DNA from: Armatimonadota bacterium
GTDB lineage: Bacteria > Cloacimonadota > Cloacimonadia > Cloacimonadales > TCS61
Assembly (NCBI GenBank): GCA_013203665.1
Contig: JABMPU010000077.1
Span: 22,471-86,470 of the forward strand
Reading direction: 5' to 3'
DNA: 64,000 nucleotides
The translations under genes were made by a program, and so were the position numbers. The notes under the pieces are model-generated. The model was given only the letters and a program-made list of their open reading frames with translations, was not told the DNA's origin and did not search any database. Below, piece after piece: positions 49,903 to 60,144 of the stretch (the first letter of the stretch is position 1; each line of letters starts with the position of its first letter).

Positions 49903-50574
49903 ATGGTAAAAATGAAAAAAAATGATCTATCTGTTTCAATGGGAAAAGCAAATTTGTATTCATTACCTTTTGTGTTTTTTTCATTTATTGTTTTCAGTCT
50001 TCCCTATTTTTTCATCTGGGGCAGAAATAGCGTGGAAATCGGTATTAGAGCTACTTATCTCAATTTGAAAGTTTTCATTCCGGTTTTTGTTTTGGGAGCA
50101 TTTCTGCACGAAATTCTGCACGGAGTTTCATTTCTGATTTTTGGAAAATTAAGCTACAAGCAAATCAAAATAGGATTTCAATGGAAAACCATAACTCCGT
50201 TTGCTCACTGCAAAGTTCCGGTTAAAGCATCTGTTTACAGAATTGCTTTGATAATGCCGACTCTTATTTTAGGAATCATTCCCTCGATTATTGCGATTAT
50301 CACAGGCAATAGCTGGCTCATTATTTACGGAATCATTTTCACAGTAGTTGGAGGTGGAGATTTTCTAACTGTTTGGCTCATTCGCAAAGCCAAAAAAAAT
50401 CAGCTTGTACAGGACCATCCTAAGAATTGTGGGTGTTGGGTTTATGAAAACAACCCCATCCTTGATCCTTCCCCTATCCGTCATAATCCGGACAAGACGA
50501 AGGGGAAGGGAAAAATAAGCAACCCCATCCTAACCTTCCCCTATCGAGGGGAAGGGAAAAGTCCCCCTAAATAG
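49903..50574 (+). CDS. membrane zincin-like protein (DUF3267-like, HExxH)
   Basis: HEILH lies within FVLGAFLHEILHGVSF, with multiple TM segments. The last ~40 codons are encoded by repeat copies at 50451-50574, so the native C-terminus is uncertain. Confidence 0.55.
   Translation: MVKMKKNDLSVSMGKANLYSLPFVFFSFIVFSLPYFFIWGRNSVEIGIRATYLNLKVFIPVFVLGAFLHEILHGVSFLIFGKLSYKQIKIGFQWKTITPFAHCKVPVKASVYRIALIMPTLILGIIPSIIAIITGNSWLIIYGIIFTVVGGGDFLTVWLIRKAKKNQLVQDHPKNCGCWVYENNPILDPSPIRHNPDKTKGKGKISNPILTFPYRGEGKSPPK
50451..50519. repeat. hairpin repeat family copy A1 (long-loop variant)
   Basis: caaccccatcc...cttcccct[25-nt loop]aggggaaggg. Confidence 0.65.
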
Positions 50575-50637: not shown

Positions 50638-50994
50638 ATGCGAGAAAATCCAACTAAAGCTGAAGCAATTTTATGGAATGAACTCAAAAGCAGAAAACTA
50701 AACGAATACAAATTTCGCTTTCAAGCTCCTTATGATAATTTTATTCTTGATTTCTTATGTTCAAAATATAAATTGATTATCGAGCTTGATGGAAAATACC
50801 ATGAGAATTTTAAAATGAAAGATACTGAAAGAGATAATTATTTTAATAGTAAAGGTTATCGAATTTTAAGATTCAAAAATGACGAAGTATTTAATAATAT
50901 TGAATTGGTGAAAAAGAAAATAATTAAAGCGATAAAACAACCCCATCCTAACCTTCCCCTATCGAGGGGAAGGAAAGAAAGTCCCACTAGATAG
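50638..50994 (+). CDS. DUF559 endonuclease-domain protein (Vsr/PD-(D/E)xK-like)
   Basis: 118 aa. LWNELKSRKL...FRFQAPYDNFILDFLC...LIIELDG..H...D..RD..L...GYRILRF matches the DUF559 pattern. The 3' end is encoded by repeat copy B. Confidence 0.8.
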   Translation: MRENPTKAEAILWNELKSRKLNEYKFRFQAPYDNFILDFLCSKYKLIIELDGKYHENFKMKDTERDNYFNSKGYRILRFKNDEVFNNIELVKKKIIKAIKQPHPNLPLSRGRKESPTR

Positions 50995-52244: not shown

Positions 52245-53636
52245 ATGAAAACTATGAAAATCGTTTTAACGCTGGTCGTATTAGTATTGAGTATTAGTTT
52301 AAATGCAGGAACCAGAATTGAGGGACTGGGAAATTATTTTGAATATCTTATCCGTGATATTGACACAGATATTACCTTATTCCCTGCACATCTTATTTGA
52401 TATGACTATAAACATATTCAGTTTGTGAATAATGGAAAATCTGCAAAATATTACGGATTTTCTGCAAGAGATATTAACCTCAGTATAATGCCTTTGGCAA
52501 AAAAAGTGTTTCTTAAAATTAACGCAAATATTGCCAGTGATAACAGGCAACCCAGAATTTATCTTAGTGATAGCTACTCATCTTTTTATGGTGAGGAATA
52601 TGGTGCAAACTTAATAACTACCACATTGGCATATTCATTTTCCAATAACTTTCTGGTTGGATGCTTTCTAAAATATGGAAATAACTGGAGAGAAAGCATA
52701 TCTGAAGATTATAAAATGACCGGTCCGAACACGATCATAAACGAGGATGTTTCAGATTCTGATTTTGACGATGATTATTATTCGACTGGAATTAATTTCA
52801 GAATAGGTTCGGATTTTAAAACCGATGTCACCATTGTGTTTTCACAGAATTTCATGAATGAGAGTTACTATGATAATTTTGATTTTGAAGATTTCTATTC
52901 CAGCGGTTCAAACACCTATTCTTATCGTAATATTGACAAGAATTCGCAATATTTAGACCAGGAAACAGAAGATATTGGAATTTGCGTTTTATTGGATGTG
53001 GAAAACGATAAATCAATAAATCGTTTTTTTATGGAATCCCACTATACTCAACTGACACTTGACTTAGAAATCAATGATTCTCGTCATCAATTGAATTATG
53101 AAAATGACGAATTAGATGGTGAGCATAATGATATTCGCGAACAAGATAAAAAGGAAGAAAGAAAAATATACACGGCAACTTTGGGTTTTGGAAAGACCAT
53201 CAAAAAAAATAAATGGAACCTGCATTATGGTATTAAATTTGATGGATTGTATGGTGATACAAAACGTGATGAATCATATTACAATCTGGATTATGATCTT
53301 TATGTATATCCTGATACCGTACAGATATATTCAGTTTCTTTCAGCGGACAAAACAATTTTAAGATCAAAGATTGGAAAGCAGTATTAAAAGTGCCATTCG
53401 GAGTAAGCTATCATTTAAATAAACTCGTTCAACTTTATGGTGGAGTTGGTTTTAAATTGATCAGGCAGAAATTCGAGTATTTTGATGATAACGAATTTAA
53501 TAGATGGGAAACCGACCGCTATCAATCATTCGGAGCTACCATCTCACCGCTCGAATGTTTGAAAATAGATGTGAATTTTGCAGGAACTCTTACCAGTTAT
53601 GCTTCCTGGCAGATAGATGTGAAATATCTGTGGTGA
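52245..53636 (+). pseudogene. outer-membrane beta-barrel-like protein interrupted by a single in-frame TGA (codon 52)
   Basis: ATG 52245 after GGAGG encodes signal peptide MKTMKIVLTLVVLVLSISLNA. TGA at 52398-52400. The same frame continues into the 403-aa ORF (52425..53636) ending YASWQIDVKYLW. Confidence 0.6.
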
Positions 53637-53652
53637 GGAAAATTATGATCAC

Positions 53653-53697
53653 AAAACCCGAGTCGGGTTCTGCAAACCCGACTCGGGTTTTGTTTTT
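53653..53697 (+). terminator. strong hairpin terminator; left copy of repeat bracketing the R-M islet
   Basis: aacccgagtcgggtt-ctgca-aacccgactcgggtt is a perfect 15-bp stem, followed by ttgttttt. Confidence 0.7.
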
Positions 53698-53827
53698 AAG
53701 ATAGTTTTTTAAAGTGGAACCTTTCTCACTTTCTTATACAACAATTCGAGTTAACAAAAAATAATTTGTTAAAAGTTTTGACAAAAGATTTTTTGTTAAG
53801 TTCTCATTCTAAATATGTAATTTTATA

Positions 53828-54580
53828 TTACATATACTGATTCCAAAGCTTTTCTTTGGCTGGGAAATGAACTGATACTAAATCTGTGAAACTGATGACA
53901 TTATGATGATCAGAAAAATTCTTTTCTTTCTCTTCATCAAAAACGACTAAATCTATATTATGCTTTTCCATTTCTTTGATTTTTTTTTCCGAAATGTCCT
54001 GCTCTTGAGTAACAATATAGATTTTGTCGGCTTTGATCGACGCCAATTCACCAACGACTTGTCTCCATCTTTCCCTTAAAGTTCTTTTTACTGAAATAAT
54101 TAAGCAAGATGTTCTGTTCTTCGTGAAAACTTTTTCACTCGGAAAAAGATAGTCAACCCTTCCATTTAATTGAGTCTGTGTAGCATAAGGATAATTTAAA
54201 CGGCTAAATAAAAATTCCAAATGTCTTTCAAAACTTCCACCTGCGCGAGCTTTTCTCGATTGACTAATACTCAAAAATACATTCCAGAAATCATTATAGT
54301 ATTTATTAAAAAAATCAGAAAATGTTTTTTTAAAATCATCTTTTGGTATTTCGAATATTTTTTGTTTAAAAGCTTCATCAAAAATCTTAATAGTACATTT
54401 CTTTTCAAATTCTTTGTATAAATCAAATTCGATCTTTAATAATTGCTTTAAAAATAAATTGAAATTTTTTTCAATATTATTCATCTCAAGTTTCTTTTGG
54501 GCAAGCTCCGCTAATCTCTCGCCAGAAGGCATAAATTGTTTTCTTATAGTTTTTTGAAAATCATTAAAATTAATATCCAT
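53828..54580 (-). CDS. type II restriction endonuclease-like protein (PD-(D/E)xK)
   Basis: 250 aa. SRKARAGGSFERHLE resembles the R-x-R-A-G motif of EcoRII-C/related REases. Candidate catalytic residues are VDYLFP ... ISVKRTLRERW. It lies 8 nt downstream of the methyltransferase gene. Confidence 0.6.
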   Translation of the reverse strand: MDINFNDFQKTIRKQFMPSGERLAELAQKKLEMNNIEKNFNLFLKQLLKIEFDLYKEFEKKCTIKIFDEAFKQKIFEIPKDDFKKTFSDFFNKYYNDFWNVFLSISQSRKARAGGSFERHLEFLFSRLNYPYATQTQLNGRVDYLFPSEKVFTKNRTSCLIISVKRTLRERWRQVVGELASIKADKIYIVTQEQDISEKKIKEMEKHNIDLVVFDEEKEKNFSDHHNVISFTDLVSVHFPAKEKLWNQYM

Positions 54581-54588
54581 AACTATGT

Positions 54589-56556
54589 TTATCTCCTTTC
54601 TAAAATAATAATAAATTCCTCAAGCATTGTGTTTACTGTTTTTCCAATAATGTTGGTCGGGCTATTTTTTCTCGGCATTCTTTTGTTTGGAATTTCTCGA
54701 ACAATTGTCTTGTGATGAAAAAAGTCTTTTTTACAAAGCTCGATTATAATTTCATCTGTTGGAATTTGTATTTCTTTTACTGTTCTATTTCCCACAACAA
54801 TACACATAAAACCACTTTTCTTCAGTACTCTAGTAAATTCTTTCAAACATTTATTTAAATCATAGAAAAAGGCAAAAACTTCATTGCTTCTTTTTTTATC
54901 TTGTTTTGAAATATTATCAACAATATCAAAAAGTAATTCTGAATAAATATCATAAACAGGATGATTAATTATTTTCCCACCTAAACTTTCTCTATCTACA
55001 TTAACATTATCTAATTCTAACCATTCAATTGCAAATCTGGAAAATTGCCCGTAAGCAACAGTCGTTTTGCTATCTCCATAAGGTGGTGAAGTTACAATTA
55101 AATCAATTTCTTCATCATTAATTTCAGATACATCTTTGACGATTTTAAACCAATGTTCTTTCGATATTTTGTTCTTTAAAGAATTTAACCTATCAATGTT
55201 TTCAAGTGATTTTTTTATAAATAATTCTTTTACATTCGGGTTGTGCTTTATTAAATCCTTTTCAGAATATCTATGCAATTTGAATCCATTTCTACAATTT
55301 GATGCTGTACGTATGGTTTCACTTAAAACAATTTTATAGAAATTTTTTATATCGGAATTCCCTATTTCCCAAATAACTTTTTTAAGTTTTCCGATTTCAT
55401 TTATTATATCATCTTTAAACCAAAAATTTATATTTCTAACCGGTGAAATATCGGGTTCTGTTTTTTCCATTCCGATTAAAATTTCATCAAGAGTATTTTT
55501 TAATAAATCTTTTTGTATTGGAGTTAATTTCACTTTTGTGATTAATTCTGCTAATGGATTAATATCAATACCAAAAGAATATCTTTTTTTTATATTTGCT
55601 TCAAAAAGTGTTGTGCCTGCTCCCATAAATGGATCTAAAATGATATCATTTTCATTACTATATTCCTCAATAAGAAAGTCTGCAATGGGGTAAGCCATAA
55701 CTGCGGGATAAATGTGTAATCCGTGTATTCCCTTGGTTTGTCGAATTTTTCTGAAATCAAACGAAGAATCTTTATATTTTTTATTTAAGAATTCTTTAGA
55801 TAATTCATTTTCATAGAACCTAGGATAATATTCTGATAAAGTAATTTGTTCATAACCGCTTTTAAAATAATCAATTTTTCTATTTTGAGTATAGTTTTCT
55901 AATAAACTGAAATAACCTTCTTTGGAAATTATTATATGATCGATTATTTTAATTCCGGATATATCTTCTAATTTTAATAATTTTTCAGTTATTTTTTGAT
56001 CTTCTTTCGAAGGGTTTGAATCTCCATCAGGATGGTTATGGACAATAACAATTGCTGTTGCATTATATAAATATGCTGGAGCGAAAATTTCTCTGGGATG
56101 AACAATACTGGAATTTACTGTCCCAATTGATATGGTTTCCCTTTTTATCAATTGATTAAGAGAATCTAAATATAAAACAATTAAATGTTCTTGTCTTTTA
56201 GTGATTAAATCTTTGCAAATATTAAAAATATCACTTGAATTGATAATTTTTGTTTTACTTTTGTCTTCACAAATAATTCTTTTTGCTAATTCAAGTGAAG
56301 CAACAATTTGCTCCGCTTTAATTTTTCCGATTCCTTTGATTTCAGTTAGTTCTTTAACACTTGCATCTAAAAGTTTTTCCCCAAATTTCTTTAAAATGTT
56401 TTTAGATACTTGCTTTACATTTGTTCCTTTTATTCCACTTCCAAGTAAAATAGAAAGCAGTTCGGAATTTGATAAATAGTTTATGCTCGTTCTTTCTAAT
56501 TTTTCTCTCGGTCTTTCAAACTCCGGCAAATCTTTAATTTTTAAATTTCTTTTCAT
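54589..56556 (-). CDS. RadC-like JAMM domain fused to DNA methyltransferase (motif I DPFMGAGTT, motif IV TSPPY)
   Basis: 655 aa. The N-terminal ~225 aa have an HhH region plus HNHPDGDSNPSKED (JAMM/MPN+). The C-terminal part has ILDPFMGAGTT, then ~180 aa later LIVTSPPYGD (alpha-type motif order; SPPY is typical of N4-C, less often N6-A, methyltransferases). Confidence 0.75.
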   Translation of the reverse strand: MKRNLKIKDLPEFERPREKLERTSINYLSNSELLSILLGSGIKGTNVKQVSKNILKKFGEKLLDASVKELTEIKGIGKIKAEQIVASLELAKRIICEDKSKTKIINSSDIFNICKDLITKRQEHLIVLYLDSLNQLIKRETISIGTVNSSIVHPREIFAPAYLYNATAIVIVHNHPDGDSNPSKEDQKITEKLLKLEDISGIKIIDHIIISKEGYFSLLENYTQNRKIDYFKSGYEQITLSEYYPRFYENELSKEFLNKKYKDSSFDFRKIRQTKGIHGLHIYPAVMAYPIADFLIEEYSNENDIILDPFMGAGTTLFEANIKKRYSFGIDINPLAELITKVKLTPIQKDLLKNTLDEILIGMEKTEPDISPVRNINFWFKDDIINEIGKLKKVIWEIGNSDIKNFYKIVLSETIRTASNCRNGFKLHRYSEKDLIKHNPNVKELFIKKSLENIDRLNSLKNKISKEHWFKIVKDVSEINDEEIDLIVTSPPYGDSKTTVAYGQFSRFAIEWLELDNVNVDRESLGGKIINHPVYDIYSELLFDIVDNISKQDKKRSNEVFAFFYDLNKCLKEFTRVLKKSGFMCIVVGNRTVKEIQIPTDEIIIELCKKDFFHHKTIVREIPNKRMPRKNSPTNIIGKTVNTMLEEFIIILERR

Positions 56557-56615
56557 TTATTTCACCATTCTTATAATAAATACTTGTTTATAAAATGATT
56601 TTCTTTGTCAAGCTC

Positions 56616-56655
56616 AAAACCCGAGTCGAGTTATTCAAACCCAACTCGGGTTTAC
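56616..56655. repeat. right (degenerate) copy of the hairpin bracketing the R-M islet
   Basis: aaaacccgagtcgagttattcaaacccaactcgggtttac has 5 substitutions relative to the first 40 nt of the left copy (aaaacccgagtcgggttctgcaaacccgactcgggttttg, 53653-53692). Confidence 0.65.
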
Positions 56656-59938: not shown

Positions 59939-60144
59939 TGTTCCCACGCAGGACAGCCTGTGTGAAAACTGATTTCTTTAAGTTATAACGATCCCCATCC
60001 CTAACCCTTCCCCCTATCGAGGGGAAAGGGAACTGCCTGCGGCAAAAGGAGATAGGTTCTCCCCCTAAATAGGGCGAGTTAGAGGGGGTTAAAAAAAATC
60101 GTGCTTTTCATCTGTTTTCACACAGACTGGGGAGCATGGGAACA
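59939..60144. mobile_element. MITE-like element: 31-bp imperfect terminal inverted repeats enclosing hairpin-repeat copy C
   Basis: tgttcccacgcaggacagcctgtgtgaaaac (59939-59969) against the reverse complement of 60114-60144 gives 25/31 matches by my count. Copy C of the cccatcc...cctatcgagggga...ccccctaaataggg family lies at 59991-60088. Confidence 0.55.

What the first reader, a model, noticed from the sequence alone, without database searches (positions are those of the whole stretch)
53653..56655. Restriction-modification islet bracketed by two copies of one hairpin; methyltransferase fused to a RadC/JAMM domain
Seen in sequence: the gene pair 54589..56556 and 53828..54580 (minus strand, 8-nt gap) lies between two copies of the same ~40-nt element. 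The left copy (53653-53697) is a perfect 15-bp-stem terminator hairpin for the upstream OMP gene. The right copy (56616-56655) has 5 substitutions by my count and a weakened stem. This is the pattern expected if an insertion duplicated, or recombined at, a pre-existing terminator. The islet also reads as visibly more AT-rich than its flanks (qualitative only). The 655-aa protein joins a complete RadC-like module (HhH region plus HNHPDGDSNPSKED JAMM motif) to a DNA methyltransferase. The methyltransferase has motif I (DPFMGAGTT) ~180 aa ahead of motif IV (TSPPY). The 250-aa partner has SRKARAGGSFE and a plausible D...SVK PD-(D/E)xK core. Established knowledge: SPPY-type motif IV is typical of N4-cytosine (some N6-adenine) methyltransferases. 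RadC-like JAMM domains recur in mobile and anti-restriction contexts, but their function is unresolved. Inference: a RadC-methyltransferase fusion as the modification subunit of a type II-like system is unusual and may add a nuclease, peptidase or regulatory activity.
Basis: partly seen in the sequence, partly recalled or inferred. Interest (0 to 1): 0.6.

Follow-up and report, generated by a model that had tools for sequence, protein, structure and literature searches.

The report
Restriction-modification cassette with RadC-fused methylase
This is a small, horizontally moving two-gene restriction-modification system in a variable chromosomal hot spot; the system itself is ordinary, but its DNA methylase has a complete RadC protein fused to its front end, one case of a wider habit of RadC fusing to DNA methylases that I did not find described and that gives a clue to RadC's unknown function.

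Summary
Two copies of one ~41-nt hairpin (53652-53692 and 56615-56655, 35/41 identical) bracket a minus-strand gene pair. That pair lies in the lowest-GC 2.9 kb of the window (0.270 against 0.353).

- **The 250-aa protein** is an EcoRII-C/Ecl18kI-type PD-(D/E)XK endonuclease. Its E118, D143, K165 and R-E-R motif are intact.
- **The 655-aa protein** is a full RadC (HhH N-domain plus JAB with an intact JAMM motif) joined by a ~35-aa linker to an alpha-class SPPY amino-methyltransferase.
- **Predicted target:** relatives of this methyltransferase pair with EcoRII-C or MvaI/BcnI endonucleases. The target is therefore probably CC(N/W/S)GG, methylated at N4 of cytosine.

The fused pair recurs as one unit in seven distinct gene neighbourhoods, six of them outside this locus. 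The RadC part is under purifying selection (dN/dS 0.05-0.2).

The fusion is rare for this methyltransferase family: seven protein clusters. However, the same RadC-plus-linker module is fused to C5-cytosine methyltransferases in more than 110 Patescibacteria clusters. LexA-methyltransferase fusions occupy the same N-terminal position.

No clean empty site was found. The gene-3' side of the OMP gene is a cargo-swapping hot spot, and the hairpin belongs to a dispersed terminator family.

Verdict: an ordinary type II restriction-modification system, with a new variant of its methyltransferase architecture. The role of RadC is inferred, not shown.

The parts
53652..53692 (+). Left hairpin copy. It is the intrinsic terminator of the OMP gene and could act in both directions: perfect 19-bp stem, 5-nt loop, T-tract on the + strand.
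   Evidence: The orthologous hairpin follows the OMP gene in L014, L015, L016 and L026.
53693..53750 (.). Native spacer holding a degenerate second hairpin (AAAGTGGAACCTTTCTCACTTT). It is shared with relatives that lack the restriction-modification pair.
   Evidence: and alignment A4. It aligns with the OMP terminator of L013 and the accD terminator of L009.
53751..53799 (.). Two tandem 22-bp palindromes (TTRACAAAA-N5-TTTGTYAA, 27-nt register). They mark the edge of the variable cargo in all close relatives. They may be an operator/promoter or a recombination site; which one is unresolved.
   Evidence: (I2).
53828..54580 (-). Restriction endonuclease gene, 250 aa, EcoRII-C/Ecl18kI family. Catalytic E118, D143, K165 and the R169-E-R171 CC:GG-reading motif are present. 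The EcoRII-C domain spans aa 87-234 (nt 53879-54322).
54598..55788 (-). Methyltransferase module of the 655-aa protein (aa 257-653). It is an alpha-class SPPY amino-methyltransferase. Motif I DPFMGAGTT lies at nt 55609-55635 and motif IV TSPPY at nt 55078-55092.
   Evidence: (PADLOC MTase_II PDLC03322, 1.5e-113).
55789..55896 (-). Linker (aa 221-256) carrying the motif (D/E)Y..G.Q.(S/T)L, which is shared with RadC-C5 methyltransferase fusions. AlphaFold confidence is low to moderate.
   Evidence: A2; dN/dS 0.16-0.48; pLDDT 58-72.
55897..56241 (-). RadC JAB domain (aa 106-220). The JAMM site is intact: E156 in PREIF and H173-x-H175-x7-S183-x2-D186 (nt 55999-56040).
   Evidence: (2QLC: target-normalised TM 0.90, rmsd 1.5 A, 41% identity).
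56314..56538 (-). RadC N-terminal UPF0758_N / helix-hairpin-helix domain (aa 7-81). It is kept even in the variant that has lost the JAB domain (P0007).
56557..56614 (-). Promoter and leader of the cassette. TTGACA lies at 56604-56609 on the - strand. The block GTTTTGARCTTGACAAAGAAAAT is conserved with L009 and L007.
   Evidence: A3.
56615..56655 (+). Right hairpin copy, decayed. It lies in a divergent intergenic region where no + strand terminator is needed. On the - strand it precedes the cassette promoter. Its right flank is orthologous to the sequence that follows the OMP hairpin in L016.

Best explanation
The islet is a mobile type IIP restriction-modification operon transcribed leftwards from one promoter at about 56604-56609, with the methyltransferase gene first and the endonuclease gene 8 nt behind it.

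**Endonuclease.** It is an Ecl18kI/EcoRII-C/PspGI-like enzyme. By homology it should read CC:GG through its R-E-R motif, flip the central base pair, and cut CCNGG or CCWGG.

**Methyltransferase.** The module belongs to an alpha-class SPPY family whose members pair with EcoRII-C or MvaI/BcnI endonucleases. It most likely protects the same pentanucleotide by N4-cytosine methylation (inferred).

**RadC addition.** An existing methyltransferase-endonuclease pair gained, at the N-terminus of the methyltransferase, a complete RadC plus a ~35-aa linker. This module came from a lineage in which RadC is habitually fused to DNA methyltransferases (Patescibacteria). The whole unit then spread among Cloacimonadota-like genomes.

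**Most likely role of RadC (inferred, not shown).** It is a cis-acting DNA-binding and control module. The helix-hairpin-helix domain holds the methyltransferase on DNA or on its own control region. This would resemble the N-terminal DNA-binding domains of M.SsoII and M.Ecl18kI, and the LexA-methyltransferase fusions found in this same family. The catalytically intact JAB domain would add a processing step, proteolytic or on nucleic acid.

**Location.** The cassette sits just past the 3' end of the OMP gene, in a hot spot where relatives carry other cargo. It is bracketed by a 41-bp direct repeat of the OMP terminator. [quoted passage not shown]
For: **Restriction-modification identity**
- Pfam EcoRII-C 1.5e-24 and PADLOC REase_II.
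- PDB sequence matches: Ecl18kI 1.6e-17, EcoRII catalytic domain 7.3e-13, PspGI 1.6e-6.
- E, D, K and RER residues are invariant in 8 homologues.
- PADLOC MTase_II 1.5e-113 over aa 257-653.
- The nearest solved fold to the methyltransferase module is E. coli Dam.

**Specificity class**
- Stand-alone methyltransferase homologues P0008 and P0016 (48% identity) are followed by EcoRII-C endonucleases.
- The LexA-fused homologue P0046 and a Liquorilactobacillus plasmid homologue are next to MvaI/BcnI endonucleases.
- A phage homologue is annotated as similar to the PspGI methylase.

**A mobile unit**
- The fused pair lies in seven different gene neighbourhoods.
- It is the lowest-GC segment of the window.
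- There is no integrase, transposase or tRNA nearby.

**RadC module is functional**
- NCBIfam RadC equivalog scores above its cutoff.
- The JAMM residues are kept in all six full-length fusions.
- dN/dS is 0.05-0.12 for JAB and 0.07-0.21 for HhH, against 0.06-0.17 for the methyltransferase.
- The modelled JAB domain superposes on RadC structure 2QLC.

**Module origin**
- The nearest RadC sequences (45-53% identity) that carry an organism name are from Patescibacteria; most hits are unnamed. About 10 of the top 120 are fused to C5 methyltransferases and share the linker motif.
- More than 110 full-length RadC-C5 methyltransferase clusters exist.

**The N-terminal slot is used for control modules**
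- LexA DNA-binding domain plus S24 peptidase is fused to the same methyltransferase family.
- A separate HTH_17 gene lies upstream in L010, and an uncalled HTH-like ORF in L004.
- A separate HTH regulator is present on the plasmid homologue.
- The regulatory N-terminal domains of M.SsoII and M.Ecl18kI are described in PMC3978073 and PMC2760811.

**Repeats**
-.
- The mode is known from PMC2853133.
Against: - No activity, methylation motif or recognition site is shown.
- CCNGG and CCWGG are not depleted in the 64 kb (observed/expected 1.02 and 1.08), so the sequence gives no support for the predicted target.
- The role of RadC is an argument from position and analogy only.
- The genes here are co-directional, not divergent as in SsoII and Ecl18kI. 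No operator for the HhH domain was identified.
- One lineage (P0007) deleted the JAB domain cleanly and kept the system, so JAB is dispensable at least there.
- Two fusions carry Thr in place of the JAMM Ser, and one of these also has a 2-aa insertion in the motif.
- The linker evolves fastest and is modelled with low confidence, which fits a passive tether.
- For the hairpins, no true empty site was found. The hairpin family is dispersed, and a degenerate copy accompanies the cassette elsewhere.
Confidence: 0.6

Rival explanations
1. The JAB domain is a self-processing or signal-responsive peptidase. It would cut the linker, or another protein such as the endonuclease, to release or tune the methyltransferase. 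This would parallel the self-cleaving LexA module fused to the same methyltransferase family. The fusion would then be a pro-protein or a damage-responsive switch.
For: - Both N-terminal additions to this methyltransferase family have the same layout: a DNA-binding domain followed by a peptidase-fold domain. These are LexA wHTH + S24 and RadC HhH + JAB.
- The JAMM site is intact and under purifying selection.
- The linker carries a motif conserved across unrelated methyltransferase partners.
- There is no internal Met or ribosome-binding site that could make a free methyltransferase.
Against: - RadC-type JAB domains were argued to lack the ubiquitin-tail groove and to act on nucleic acids instead (PMC5512222 and PMC3239186).
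- No peptidase activity of any RadC was found in the papers searched.
- Variant P0007 has no JAB domain yet keeps the HhH domain fused.
Confidence: 0.15
2. RadC supplies a second DNA-directed activity beside methylation. This could be a nuclease or DNA-processing function acting at replication forks, on incoming DNA, or at breaks made by the partner endonuclease. The system would then be more than a plain type II pair.
For: [quoted passage not shown]
- RadC is fused independently to two different DNA methyltransferase families, C5 and N4/N6.
- Some C5 fusion loci also carry Vsr repair genes.
Against: - No biochemical evidence for any RadC nuclease appeared in the papers searched.
- JAB was lost in P0007 without loss of the pair.
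- A stand-alone endonuclease is already present.
Confidence: 0.15
3. The RadC part is a neutral passenger. A restriction-modification pair landed next to a radC gene, a stop codon was lost, and the fusion persists because it does no harm or merely borrows a promoter.
For: - Restriction-modification genes often insert beside housekeeping genes.
- The JAB domain could be deleted in one lineage.
- The linker is poorly constrained.
Against: - dN/dS of the RadC domains is as low as that of the methyltransferase across dS up to about 2.
- The fused unit moved intact to at least six further neighbourhoods.
- The same RadC-plus-linker module is fused to an unrelated methyltransferase family in more than 110 clusters.
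- The nearest RadC relatives that carry an organism name are from Patescibacteria rather than the Cloacimonadota-like host lineage.
Confidence: 0.07
4. The two hairpins are not a target duplication. The right copy would be the cassette's own upstream terminator or insulator, and the left copy the resident OMP terminator. They look alike because both belong to one lineage-wide terminator family, and that likeness may have guided homologous recombination.
For: - Near-identical hairpins end unrelated genes in L023-L025, L027 and L028.
- L007 and L009 carry degenerate hairpin remnants directly upstream of the conserved cassette promoter in other chromosomal contexts.
- On the - strand the right copy folds at -24.3 kcal/mol and is followed by UUUUG just before the -35 box.
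Against: - In L016 the sequence to the right of the right copy directly follows the OMP hairpin. This is what a duplicated target predicts.
- In 64 kb the motif occurs only at these two sites.
- 41 bp bracketing a methyltransferase-endonuclease pair with no mobility gene matches the published criteria for long target duplication.
Confidence: 0.4

Closest known systems
Ecl18kI / SsoII, EcoRII and PspGI restriction-modification systems (CCNGG / CCWGG)
   Same: - The endonuclease shares the EcoRII-C fold family, the catalytic E...D...K triad and the R-(D/E)-R CC:GG-reading motif.
- An aromatic residue (F52) aligns with the base-flipping pocket residue Y226 of EcoRII. This is a weak alignment (pocket residues from PMC2577355).
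- M.SsoII and M.Ecl18kI also carry an extra N-terminal DNA-binding domain (PMC3978073, PMC2760811).
   Different: - Those systems, except PspGI, use C5 methyltransferases. Here the methyltransferase is an SPPY amino-methyltransferase.
- The genes here are co-directional with an 8-nt gap, not divergent.
- The N-terminal addition is a 220-aa RadC, not a 70-aa HTH.
- At 250 aa the endonuclease has no EcoRII-type effector domain.
MvaI / BcnI-type systems with M.MvaI-like N4-cytosine methyltransferases (the N4 assignment is from my own knowledge, not tested here)
   Same: The methyltransferase module is 38-45% identical to homologues that sit next to MvaI/BcnI-family endonucleases. They share the TSPPYGDSKTTVAYGQFSR block.
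   Different: The partner endonuclease here is EcoRII-C type, not MvaI/BcnI type. Those homologues are stand-alone proteins of about 410-450 aa or are fused to LexA, not RadC.
RadC family (NCBIfam PRK00024 / TIGR00608; PDB 2QLC)
   Same: Residues 1-221 form a full-length RadC with UPF0758_N/HhH and JAB domains. They score above the equivalog cutoff. The JAMM motif is intact. The fold matches 2QLC with target-normalised TM 0.90.
   Different: Ordinary RadC is a stand-alone protein of about 220 aa. The fusions named in the main text of the two papers read are to HhH, ArdC, DnaG primase and DinG helicase, not to methyltransferases.
RadC-C5-cytosine methyltransferase fusions of Patescibacteria (P0241-P0354; annotated only as 'DNA repair protein RadC' or 'DNA (cytosine-5)-methyltransferase 1')
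   Same: They have the same RadC subfamily (45-53% identity), the same post-JAB linker motif, and the same order with RadC at the N-terminus. Some lie beside type II endonuclease genes of HaeII type, or HpaII fragments.
   Different: - The methyltransferase family is unrelated (PF00145, C5).
- The host phylum differs.
- Several copies are truncated and interrupted by HNH or NOV_C genes.
Insertion of restriction-modification genes with long target duplication (Furuta, Abe and Kobayashi 2010, PMC2853133)
   Same: The endonuclease and methyltransferase genes lie between direct repeats longer than 30 bp. The insert is shorter than 20 kb. There is no mobility gene. The insert GC is below the genome GC. 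The repeat overlaps a gene's 3' end region, as in the two 46-bp H. influenzae cases.
   Different: The defining comparison with an empty site holding one copy is missing. The repeat is itself a hairpin from a dispersed family. Native sequence lies between the left repeat and the cargo.

Membership tests
Type II (IIP) restriction-modification system | Separate endonuclease and methyltransferase genes that are adjacent and co-transcribed | tested here: met
   The ORFs are 8 nt apart on the same strand. The pairing is conserved in all seven neighbourhoods and with the stand-alone homologues.
Type II (IIP) restriction-modification system | Both enzymes act on the same short palindromic site; cleavage is blocked by methylation | not testable with these tools
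   This needs enzymology or a methylome. Motif avoidance gave no signal.
EcoRII-C / Ecl18kI / PspGI endonuclease family (PF09019) | Match to the family profile above the curated cutoff | tested here: met
   87.4 bits against a cutoff of 25, aa 87-234. Ecl18kI 1.6e-17.
EcoRII-C / Ecl18kI / PspGI endonuclease family (PF09019) | Catalytic E...D...K and the R-(D/E)-R motif next to the catalytic lysine | tested here: met
   E118, D143, K165 and R169-E170-R171 align with the Ecl18kI motifs KEFE, VDLV and SAKTTLRERW, and are invariant in 8 homologues.
EcoRII-C / Ecl18kI / PspGI endonuclease family (PF09019) | Base-flipping pocket (Ecl18kI R57/W61; EcoRII R222/Y226; PspGI E60/F64) | tested here: inconclusive
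   L48 and F52 align with EcoRII R222 and Y226, but only in a low-scoring stretch (residues from PMC2577355). F/Y52 is conserved.
Alpha-class N4-cytosine / N6-adenine DNA methyltransferase (PF01555) | AdoMet motif I (FxGxG) and catalytic motif IV ((S/D)PPY), in the order I - target-recognition region - IV | tested here: met
   DPFMGAGTT at aa 308 and TSPPY at aa 489. Both are invariant among 10 homologues. The nearest solved fold is Dam.
Alpha-class N4-cytosine / N6-adenine DNA methyltransferase (PF01555) | The methylated base (m4C or m6A) and the target sequence | not testable with these tools
   m4C at CC(N/W/S)GG is inferred only from the partner endonuclease families.
RadC family (PRK00024 / PF04002 + PF20582) | Full-length match above the curated cutoff, covering both the N-terminal HhH domain and the JAB domain | tested here: met
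   218.7 bits against 180, aa 17-221 covering profile positions 1-209 of 212. Pfam RadC 130 bits and UPF0758_N 77 bits.
RadC family (PRK00024 / PF04002 + PF20582) | JAMM metal site: E ... HxHx7Sx2D | tested here: met
   E156, H173, H175, S183 and D186 are present in the window protein. H, H and D are kept in all six fusions. Two fusions have S to T, and one of these also has a 2-aa insertion.
RadC family (PRK00024 / PF04002 + PF20582) | Stand-alone housekeeping protein; the genome's only radC | not testable with these tools
   Here it is fused, not stand-alone. Whether the genome holds a second radC cannot be seen from 64 kb.
Restriction-modification insertion with long target duplication (PMC2853133) | Endonuclease and methyltransferase genes inside the insert; insert shorter than 20 kb; direct repeat longer than 30 bp; no other mobile-element genes | tested here: met
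   The repeat copies are 2963 bp apart start to start and match at 35 of 41 bp. Neighbouring ORFs are a peptidase, DUF559, the OMP, ACAD and a carboxyltransferase. There is no tRNA.
Restriction-modification insertion with long target duplication (PMC2853133) | A related genome shows the uninterrupted target with a single repeat copy | tested here: inconclusive
   L015, L016 and L026 have a single hairpin after the OMP gene but other cargo after it. L016 joins the hairpin to the window's right-flank sequence. No OMP-hairpin-ACAD site was found.
Polyvalent proteins of conjugative elements and phages (Iyer et al. 2017) | Multidomain effector protein encoded on a conjugative element or phage, with several conflict domains and often a processing peptidase | tested here: not met
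   There are only two modules, the context is chromosomal, and there are no transfer or phage genes. No plasmid or phage record carries the fusion.

The most novel reading that the evidence does not exclude
RadC, a near-universal bacterial protein whose function is still unknown, is a dedicated partner of DNA methyltransferases. The repeated N-terminal fusion of one RadC-plus-linker module to two unrelated methyltransferase families would be Rosetta-stone evidence for this. Those families are C5 in more than 110 Patescibacteria clusters and N4/N6 here. A LexA (DNA-binding domain plus peptidase) module occupies the same position. On this reading RadC couples methylation to a DNA-state signal, such as a replication fork, a break, or incoming or hemimethylated DNA, through a proteolytic or nucleolytic JAB step. 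That would also define a new class of self-regulating restriction-modification systems.
Probability: 0.25. Interest if true: 0.75.

Novelty: new variant of a known kind. Interest (0 to 1): 0.5.

Why it matters
The restriction-modification pair itself is routine. The value lies in the fusion. RadC is conserved across most bacteria and is induced with competence genes in some (from my own knowledge). It still has no accepted activity (PMC3239186, PMC5512222).

A compact two-gene cassette in which an intact, selected RadC is covalently tied to a methyltransferase is a tractable test bed. The readouts are simple: methylation level, self-restriction, establishment efficiency and phage resistance. 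Natural controls exist, namely the JAB-deleted variant P0007 and the stand-alone methyltransferase homologues.

The wider pattern suggests that the N-terminus of type II methyltransferases is a recurrent docking point for modules made of a DNA-binding domain plus a peptidase fold. That pattern includes the RadC-C5 methyltransferase fusions in candidate-phyla bacteria and the LexA-methyltransferase fusions. If confirmed, it bears on how restriction-modification systems avoid killing their hosts.

The locus also adds an example from an uncultured lineage of restriction-modification genes bracketed by a long direct repeat in a cargo-swapping hot spot.

Tried and rejected
- **Target-site avoidance.** CCNGG, CCWGG, CCSGG, CCGG and related sites are not depleted in the window, so they say nothing about specificity. 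GGCC is strongly depleted instead, which is unrelated to this system.
- **Empty-site search.**
  - One genome-contig scan with the OMP protein gave four relatives. One carries the same islet and three carry other cargo.
  - One metagenome scan with the hairpin pattern gave six loci. One was the OMP site, again with other cargo, and five were other genes.
- **Integron attC reading of the tandem palindromes.** The ends loosely resemble RYYYAAC and GTTRRRY. I did not pursue it for three reasons: only one such locus exists in 64 kb, the units are short 22-bp palindromes in a strict 27-nt register, and in L015, L016 and L026 they directly abut a ribosome-binding site. That layout looks more like an operator or promoter array.
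- **Phage or plasmid origin.** No viral contig, phage record or plasmid record carries the fusion.
- **Known RNA or tRNA attachment site.** There is no Rfam match above noise and no tRNA.
- **Polyvalent-protein membership.** Rejected (see the membership test).
- **Literature.** Four of the searches targeted RadC (with methyltransferase, restriction-modification, JAB, nuclease, REBASE, Ecl18kI or anti-restriction). None found a description of RadC-methyltransferase fusions. One further search was badly framed and returned only noise.
- **Structure prediction.** It confirmed the domains, but the tool reports no inter-domain error, so the model does not show whether the linker docks into the JAB site.

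Full report
**1. The observation**

The sequence is as described.
- ORFs 54589..56556 (655 aa) and 53828..54580 (250 aa) lie on the minus strand, 8 nt apart.
- They sit between two copies of one hairpin.
  - The left copy, 53652-53692, has a perfect 19-bp stem and a 5-nt loop. It folds at -34.8 kcal/mol (z = -8.9) and is followed by TTTTGTTTTT. It directly follows the stop codon of the outer-membrane-protein (OMP) gene.
  - The right copy, 56615-56655, matches it at 35 of 41 positions. It folds less well: -16.6 kcal/mol on the + strand and -24.3 on the - strand.
- A 16-nt core with up to three mismatches occurs only at these two loci in 64 kb. None of 100 shuffles reached the observed count.
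- The DNA between the hairpins has GC 0.270. It is the lowest-GC 2.9-kb stretch of the window, where the mean is 0.353 and the sd 0.025.

**2. The two proteins**

*The 250-aa protein* is a PD-(D/E)XK endonuclease of the EcoRII-C family.
- Pfam EcoRII-C scores 1.5e-24 and PADLOC REase_II 1.8e-17.
- Its best solved relatives are Ecl18kI (CCNGG), the EcoRII catalytic domain (CCWGG) and PspGI (CCWGG).
- E118, D143, K165 and the R169-E-R171 motif next to the lysine are invariant in eight homologues.
- An aromatic residue (F52) aligns weakly with the base-flipping pocket residue of EcoRII (PMC2577355).

*The 655-aa protein* has three parts.
- Residues 1-221 are a complete RadC. The NCBIfam equivalog PRK00024 scores 218.7 bits against a cutoff of 180. 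Pfam finds UPF0758_N/HhH and the RadC JAB domain. The JAMM site is intact: E156 and H173-x-H175-x7-S183-x2-D186.
- Residues 221-256 are a linker.
- Residues 257-653 match a PADLOC type II methyltransferase profile end to end (1.5e-113). Motif I (DPFMGAGTT) lies 181 aa ahead of motif IV (TSPPY).

An AlphaFold model (mean pLDDT 85.5, pTM 0.70) gives confident domains and a linker with pLDDT 58-72. The JAB domain superposes on Chlorobium RadC, PDB 2QLC (target-normalised TM 0.90, rmsd 1.5 A). The nearest solved fold for the methyltransferase is E. coli Dam, which fits the alpha-class order.

**3. Likely target**

- Stand-alone homologues of the methyltransferase module (48% identity, about 410 aa) are each followed by an EcoRII-C endonuclease of 231-245 aa. 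That endonuclease is 52-53% identical to the one here.
- Other homologues sit beside MvaI/BcnI-family endonucleases.
- A Sulfolobus virus homologue is annotated as similar to the PspGI methylase.

All these partners cut CC(N/W/S)GG. I therefore infer that the methyltransferase protects such a pentanucleotide, most likely as N4-methylcytosine. SPPY is typical of that class; this is established knowledge and was not tested here. The window itself gives no support: CCNGG and CCWGG occur at expected frequencies.

**4. The fusion is real, conserved and mobile**

- In 5.8 billion protein clusters, the search with the whole protein found the identical protein plus five full-length relatives at 69-84% identity. 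It also found one 524-aa relative. Every other listed hit was a methyltransferase without RadC, at 51% identity or less.
- The fused gene is always followed by the 250-aa endonuclease gene, in seven different neighbourhoods:
  - OMP | ACAD (the window and L014);
  - Rce1-like | spermine synthase;
  - epimerase | methyltransferase;
  - RND efflux | Dam-like;
  - glyoxalase | carboxyltransferase;
  - DNA polymerase III delta' | HEPN-NTase island.
- The JAMM residues are kept in all six full-length proteins. Two have Ser replaced by Thr, and one of these also has a 2-aa insertion.
- Pairwise dN/dS values:

| Region | dN/dS |
|---|---|
| JAB domain | 0.05-0.12 |
| HhH domain | 0.07-0.21 |
| Methyltransferase | 0.06-0.17 |
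| Endonuclease | 0.06-0.17 |
| Linker | 0.16-0.48 |

The RadC part is therefore maintained by selection and is not a recent annotation or assembly accident.
- The 524-aa variant (P0007) has a clean in-frame deletion of roughly residues 116-250. It removes JAB and keeps the HhH domain fused to the methyltransferase. It has a separate HTH_17 gene just upstream.

**5. Where the RadC module came from, and how common such fusions are**

- A search with residues 1-247 found relatives at 45-53% identity. The hits that carry an organism name are from Patescibacteria; most hits are unnamed.
- About ten of the best 120 hits carry a C5-cytosine methyltransferase domain behind RadC.
- These share not only RadC but also the post-JAB segment (D/E)Y..G.Q.(S/T)L with the window protein.
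- A search with one of them (P0121) returned 120 of 120 best hits with the RadC + C5 methyltransferase architecture. More than 110 are full-length proteins of 552-596 aa. They come from Moranbacteria, Gracilibacteria, Beckwithbacteria, Parcubacteria and others. They are annotated only as 'DNA repair protein RadC' or 'DNA (cytosine-5)-methyltransferase 1'.
- Some lie beside HaeII-type or HpaII-type endonuclease genes and Vsr.

Fusion of RadC to a DNA methyltransferase is therefore widespread. The combination with this N6_N4 family and an EcoRII-C endonuclease is the rare variant.

The papers I could search name RadC fusions to HhH, ArdC, primase and DinG helicase, but not to methyltransferases. 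REBASE could not be queried.

**6. A parallel that bears on mechanism**

- In the same methyltransferase family, two clusters (P0046 and P0104, 631-632 aa) carry a complete LexA at the N-terminus. It has the winged-helix DNA-binding domain, the Ala-Gly cleavage site and the S24 peptidase. These proteins are followed by an MvaI/BcnI endonuclease.
- Other members have a separate HTH regulator gene in front.
- M.SsoII and M.Ecl18kI are the methyltransferases of the very endonuclease family found here. They are known to regulate their own systems through an extra N-terminal DNA-binding domain (PMC3978073, PMC2760811).

The N-terminus of these methyltransferases is thus a recurrent site for control modules. 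Twice the module consists of a DNA-binding domain followed by a peptidase-fold domain.

From this I infer, without direct evidence, that the RadC module acts in cis on the behaviour or expression of the methyltransferase. The HhH domain is the indispensable part, and JAB would add a processing step. The rival readings cannot be excluded. They are self-processing peptidase, second DNA-directed activity, and neutral passenger. The passenger reading is the weakest given sections 4 and 5.

**7. The hairpins and the locus**

Four relatives of the OMP locus were found.
- **L014** has the same islet with both hairpins. It shares the right copy's substitutions, so the arrangement predates the split of these two lineages.
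- **L015 and L026** have OMP, one hairpin, and the same ~110 nt that follow the left hairpin in the window. That stretch is a degenerate second hairpin plus tandem palindromes. After it come STAND-like ATPase genes instead of the restriction-modification pair.
- **L016** has OMP and one hairpin, followed directly by sequence orthologous to the window's right flank. Palindromes and an ATPase gene come next.
- **L013** has OMP, a different hairpin, the palindromes and two unrelated genes.
- **L009** has the same cassette, with the palindromes, about 6 kb away behind the carboxyltransferase gene.

The gene-3' side of the OMP gene is therefore a cargo-swapping hot spot. The true left edge of the foreign DNA is near 53800, not at the left hairpin.

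The L016 junction is what a target duplication predicts. The islet also meets the operational criteria of Furuta et al. for insertion with long target duplication: endonuclease plus methyltransferase, under 20 kb, repeat over 30 bp, no mobility genes (PMC2853133).

Three points weaken that reading.
- No clean OMP-hairpin-ACAD site was seen.
- Very similar hairpins terminate unrelated genes in related metagenomic organisms.
- Degenerate remnants of the hairpin lie just upstream of the conserved cassette promoter in L007 and L009.

The right copy may therefore belong to the cassette, as an upstream terminator or insulator, and may have guided recombination with the resident terminator. I rate the two origins about equally likely.

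**8. Verdict**

- The finding is real and the annotation as a type II restriction-modification islet is sound.
- The system is a new variant of a known kind, not a new kind.
- Its interest lies in the RadC-methyltransferase link. That link is much broader than this locus and I did not find it described. It offers an experimental handle on RadC.
- Confidence is about 0.9 that this is a CC(N/W/S)GG-type restriction-modification pair carried on a mobile cassette. It is about 0.3 for the specific control-module role of RadC.

Noticed in passing
window 52245-53636 (stop at 52398-52400): The OMP gene just ahead of the islet is interrupted by a single in-frame TGA, where relative L013 has GGA (Gly). 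The signal-peptide part (ATG at 52245) is cut off from the rest of the ORF. This is either a pseudogene or an assembly error. TGA is used as a normal stop elsewhere in the window, so recoding is unlikely.
   Followed up: partly
window 53751-53772 and 53778-53799; also L009:6119-6167, L013:247-295 and 1874-1922, L014:5948-5996, L015:2309-2384, L016:5957-6005, L026:2431-2506: Tandem 22-bp palindromes (TTRACAAAA-N5-TTTGTYAA) in a strict 27-nt register. This is the only such locus in the 64 kb. The palindromes appear at the edge of every variable cargo in close relatives, and in L013 also upstream of the OMP gene. In L015, L016 and L026 the last unit abuts a ribosome-binding site. They may be an operator/promoter array or a recombination site; which one is unresolved.
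   Followed up: partly
whole window: GGCC is almost absent (6 observed against about 50 expected). GATC (159 against 269), CATG (124 against 194) and CTAG (10 against 62) are also depleted. This suggests long exposure of the lineage to other restriction systems. The predicted target of this islet (CCNGG / CCWGG) is not depleted.
   Followed up: no
window 53828-56556 compared with L014:6025-8747: The two copies of the cassette at the same chromosomal site are mosaic. Synonymous divergence is about 0.16 in the endonuclease gene and the HhH region but about 0.5 in the JAB and methyltransferase regions, and the linker is identical. L014's central part is closer to the L007 and L009 alleles. This points to recombination between cassette alleles.
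   Followed up: no
L032-L034 (P0046), also P0104: Complete LexA (DNA-binding domain, Ala-Gly site, S24 peptidase) is fused to the N-terminus of the same methyltransferase family, followed by an MvaI/BcnI-family endonuclease. This may be an SOS-linked restriction-modification control. I did not find it described.
   Followed up: partly
L017-L022; proteins P0241-P0354: More than 110 clusters of full-length RadC-C5-cytosine methyltransferase fusions (552-596 aa) occur in Patescibacteria. Several shorter copies end at one conserved point (…GDITKVK(S/N)(F/Y)SL) or just after the ENV motif. One copy of each kind was examined: an HNH_2 gene follows the first kind (L018), and a NOV_C gene then RE_HaeII and Vsr follow the second (L020). 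The methyltransferase gene looks invaded by a nuclease gene.
   Followed up: partly
L010-L012 (P0007); L004:7810-7990: One lineage of the cassette has lost the JAB domain by a clean in-frame deletion and has a 59-aa HTH_17 gene directly upstream. L004 has a similar uncalled HTH-like ORF while keeping JAB. The window, L007 and L009 have no such gene.
   Followed up: partly
L009:5343-6027: In this copy of the cassette the endonuclease gene is split into 154-aa and 83-aa ORFs while the fused methyltransferase is intact. This looks like a decaying system on its way to an orphan methyltransferase.
   Followed up: no
window about 59990-60090; L013:1-230: Clusters of GC-rich short palindromic units (for example CTCCCCCTAAATAGGGCGAG and TCTCCCTGGATAGGGAGAG) lie in intergenic DNA. 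This looks like a REP- or MITE-like repeat family of this lineage. The C-terminal tails of ORFs 49903..50574 and 50638..50994 may run into similar units.
   Followed up: no
window as a whole; L013-L016: The public record holding the identical protein is labelled Armatimonadetes, and L014 is labelled Armatimonadota. The other three syntenic relatives (OMP 78-85% identical) and the P0005 record are labelled Cloacimonadota. The phylum label of the source bin is probably wrong.
   Followed up: no
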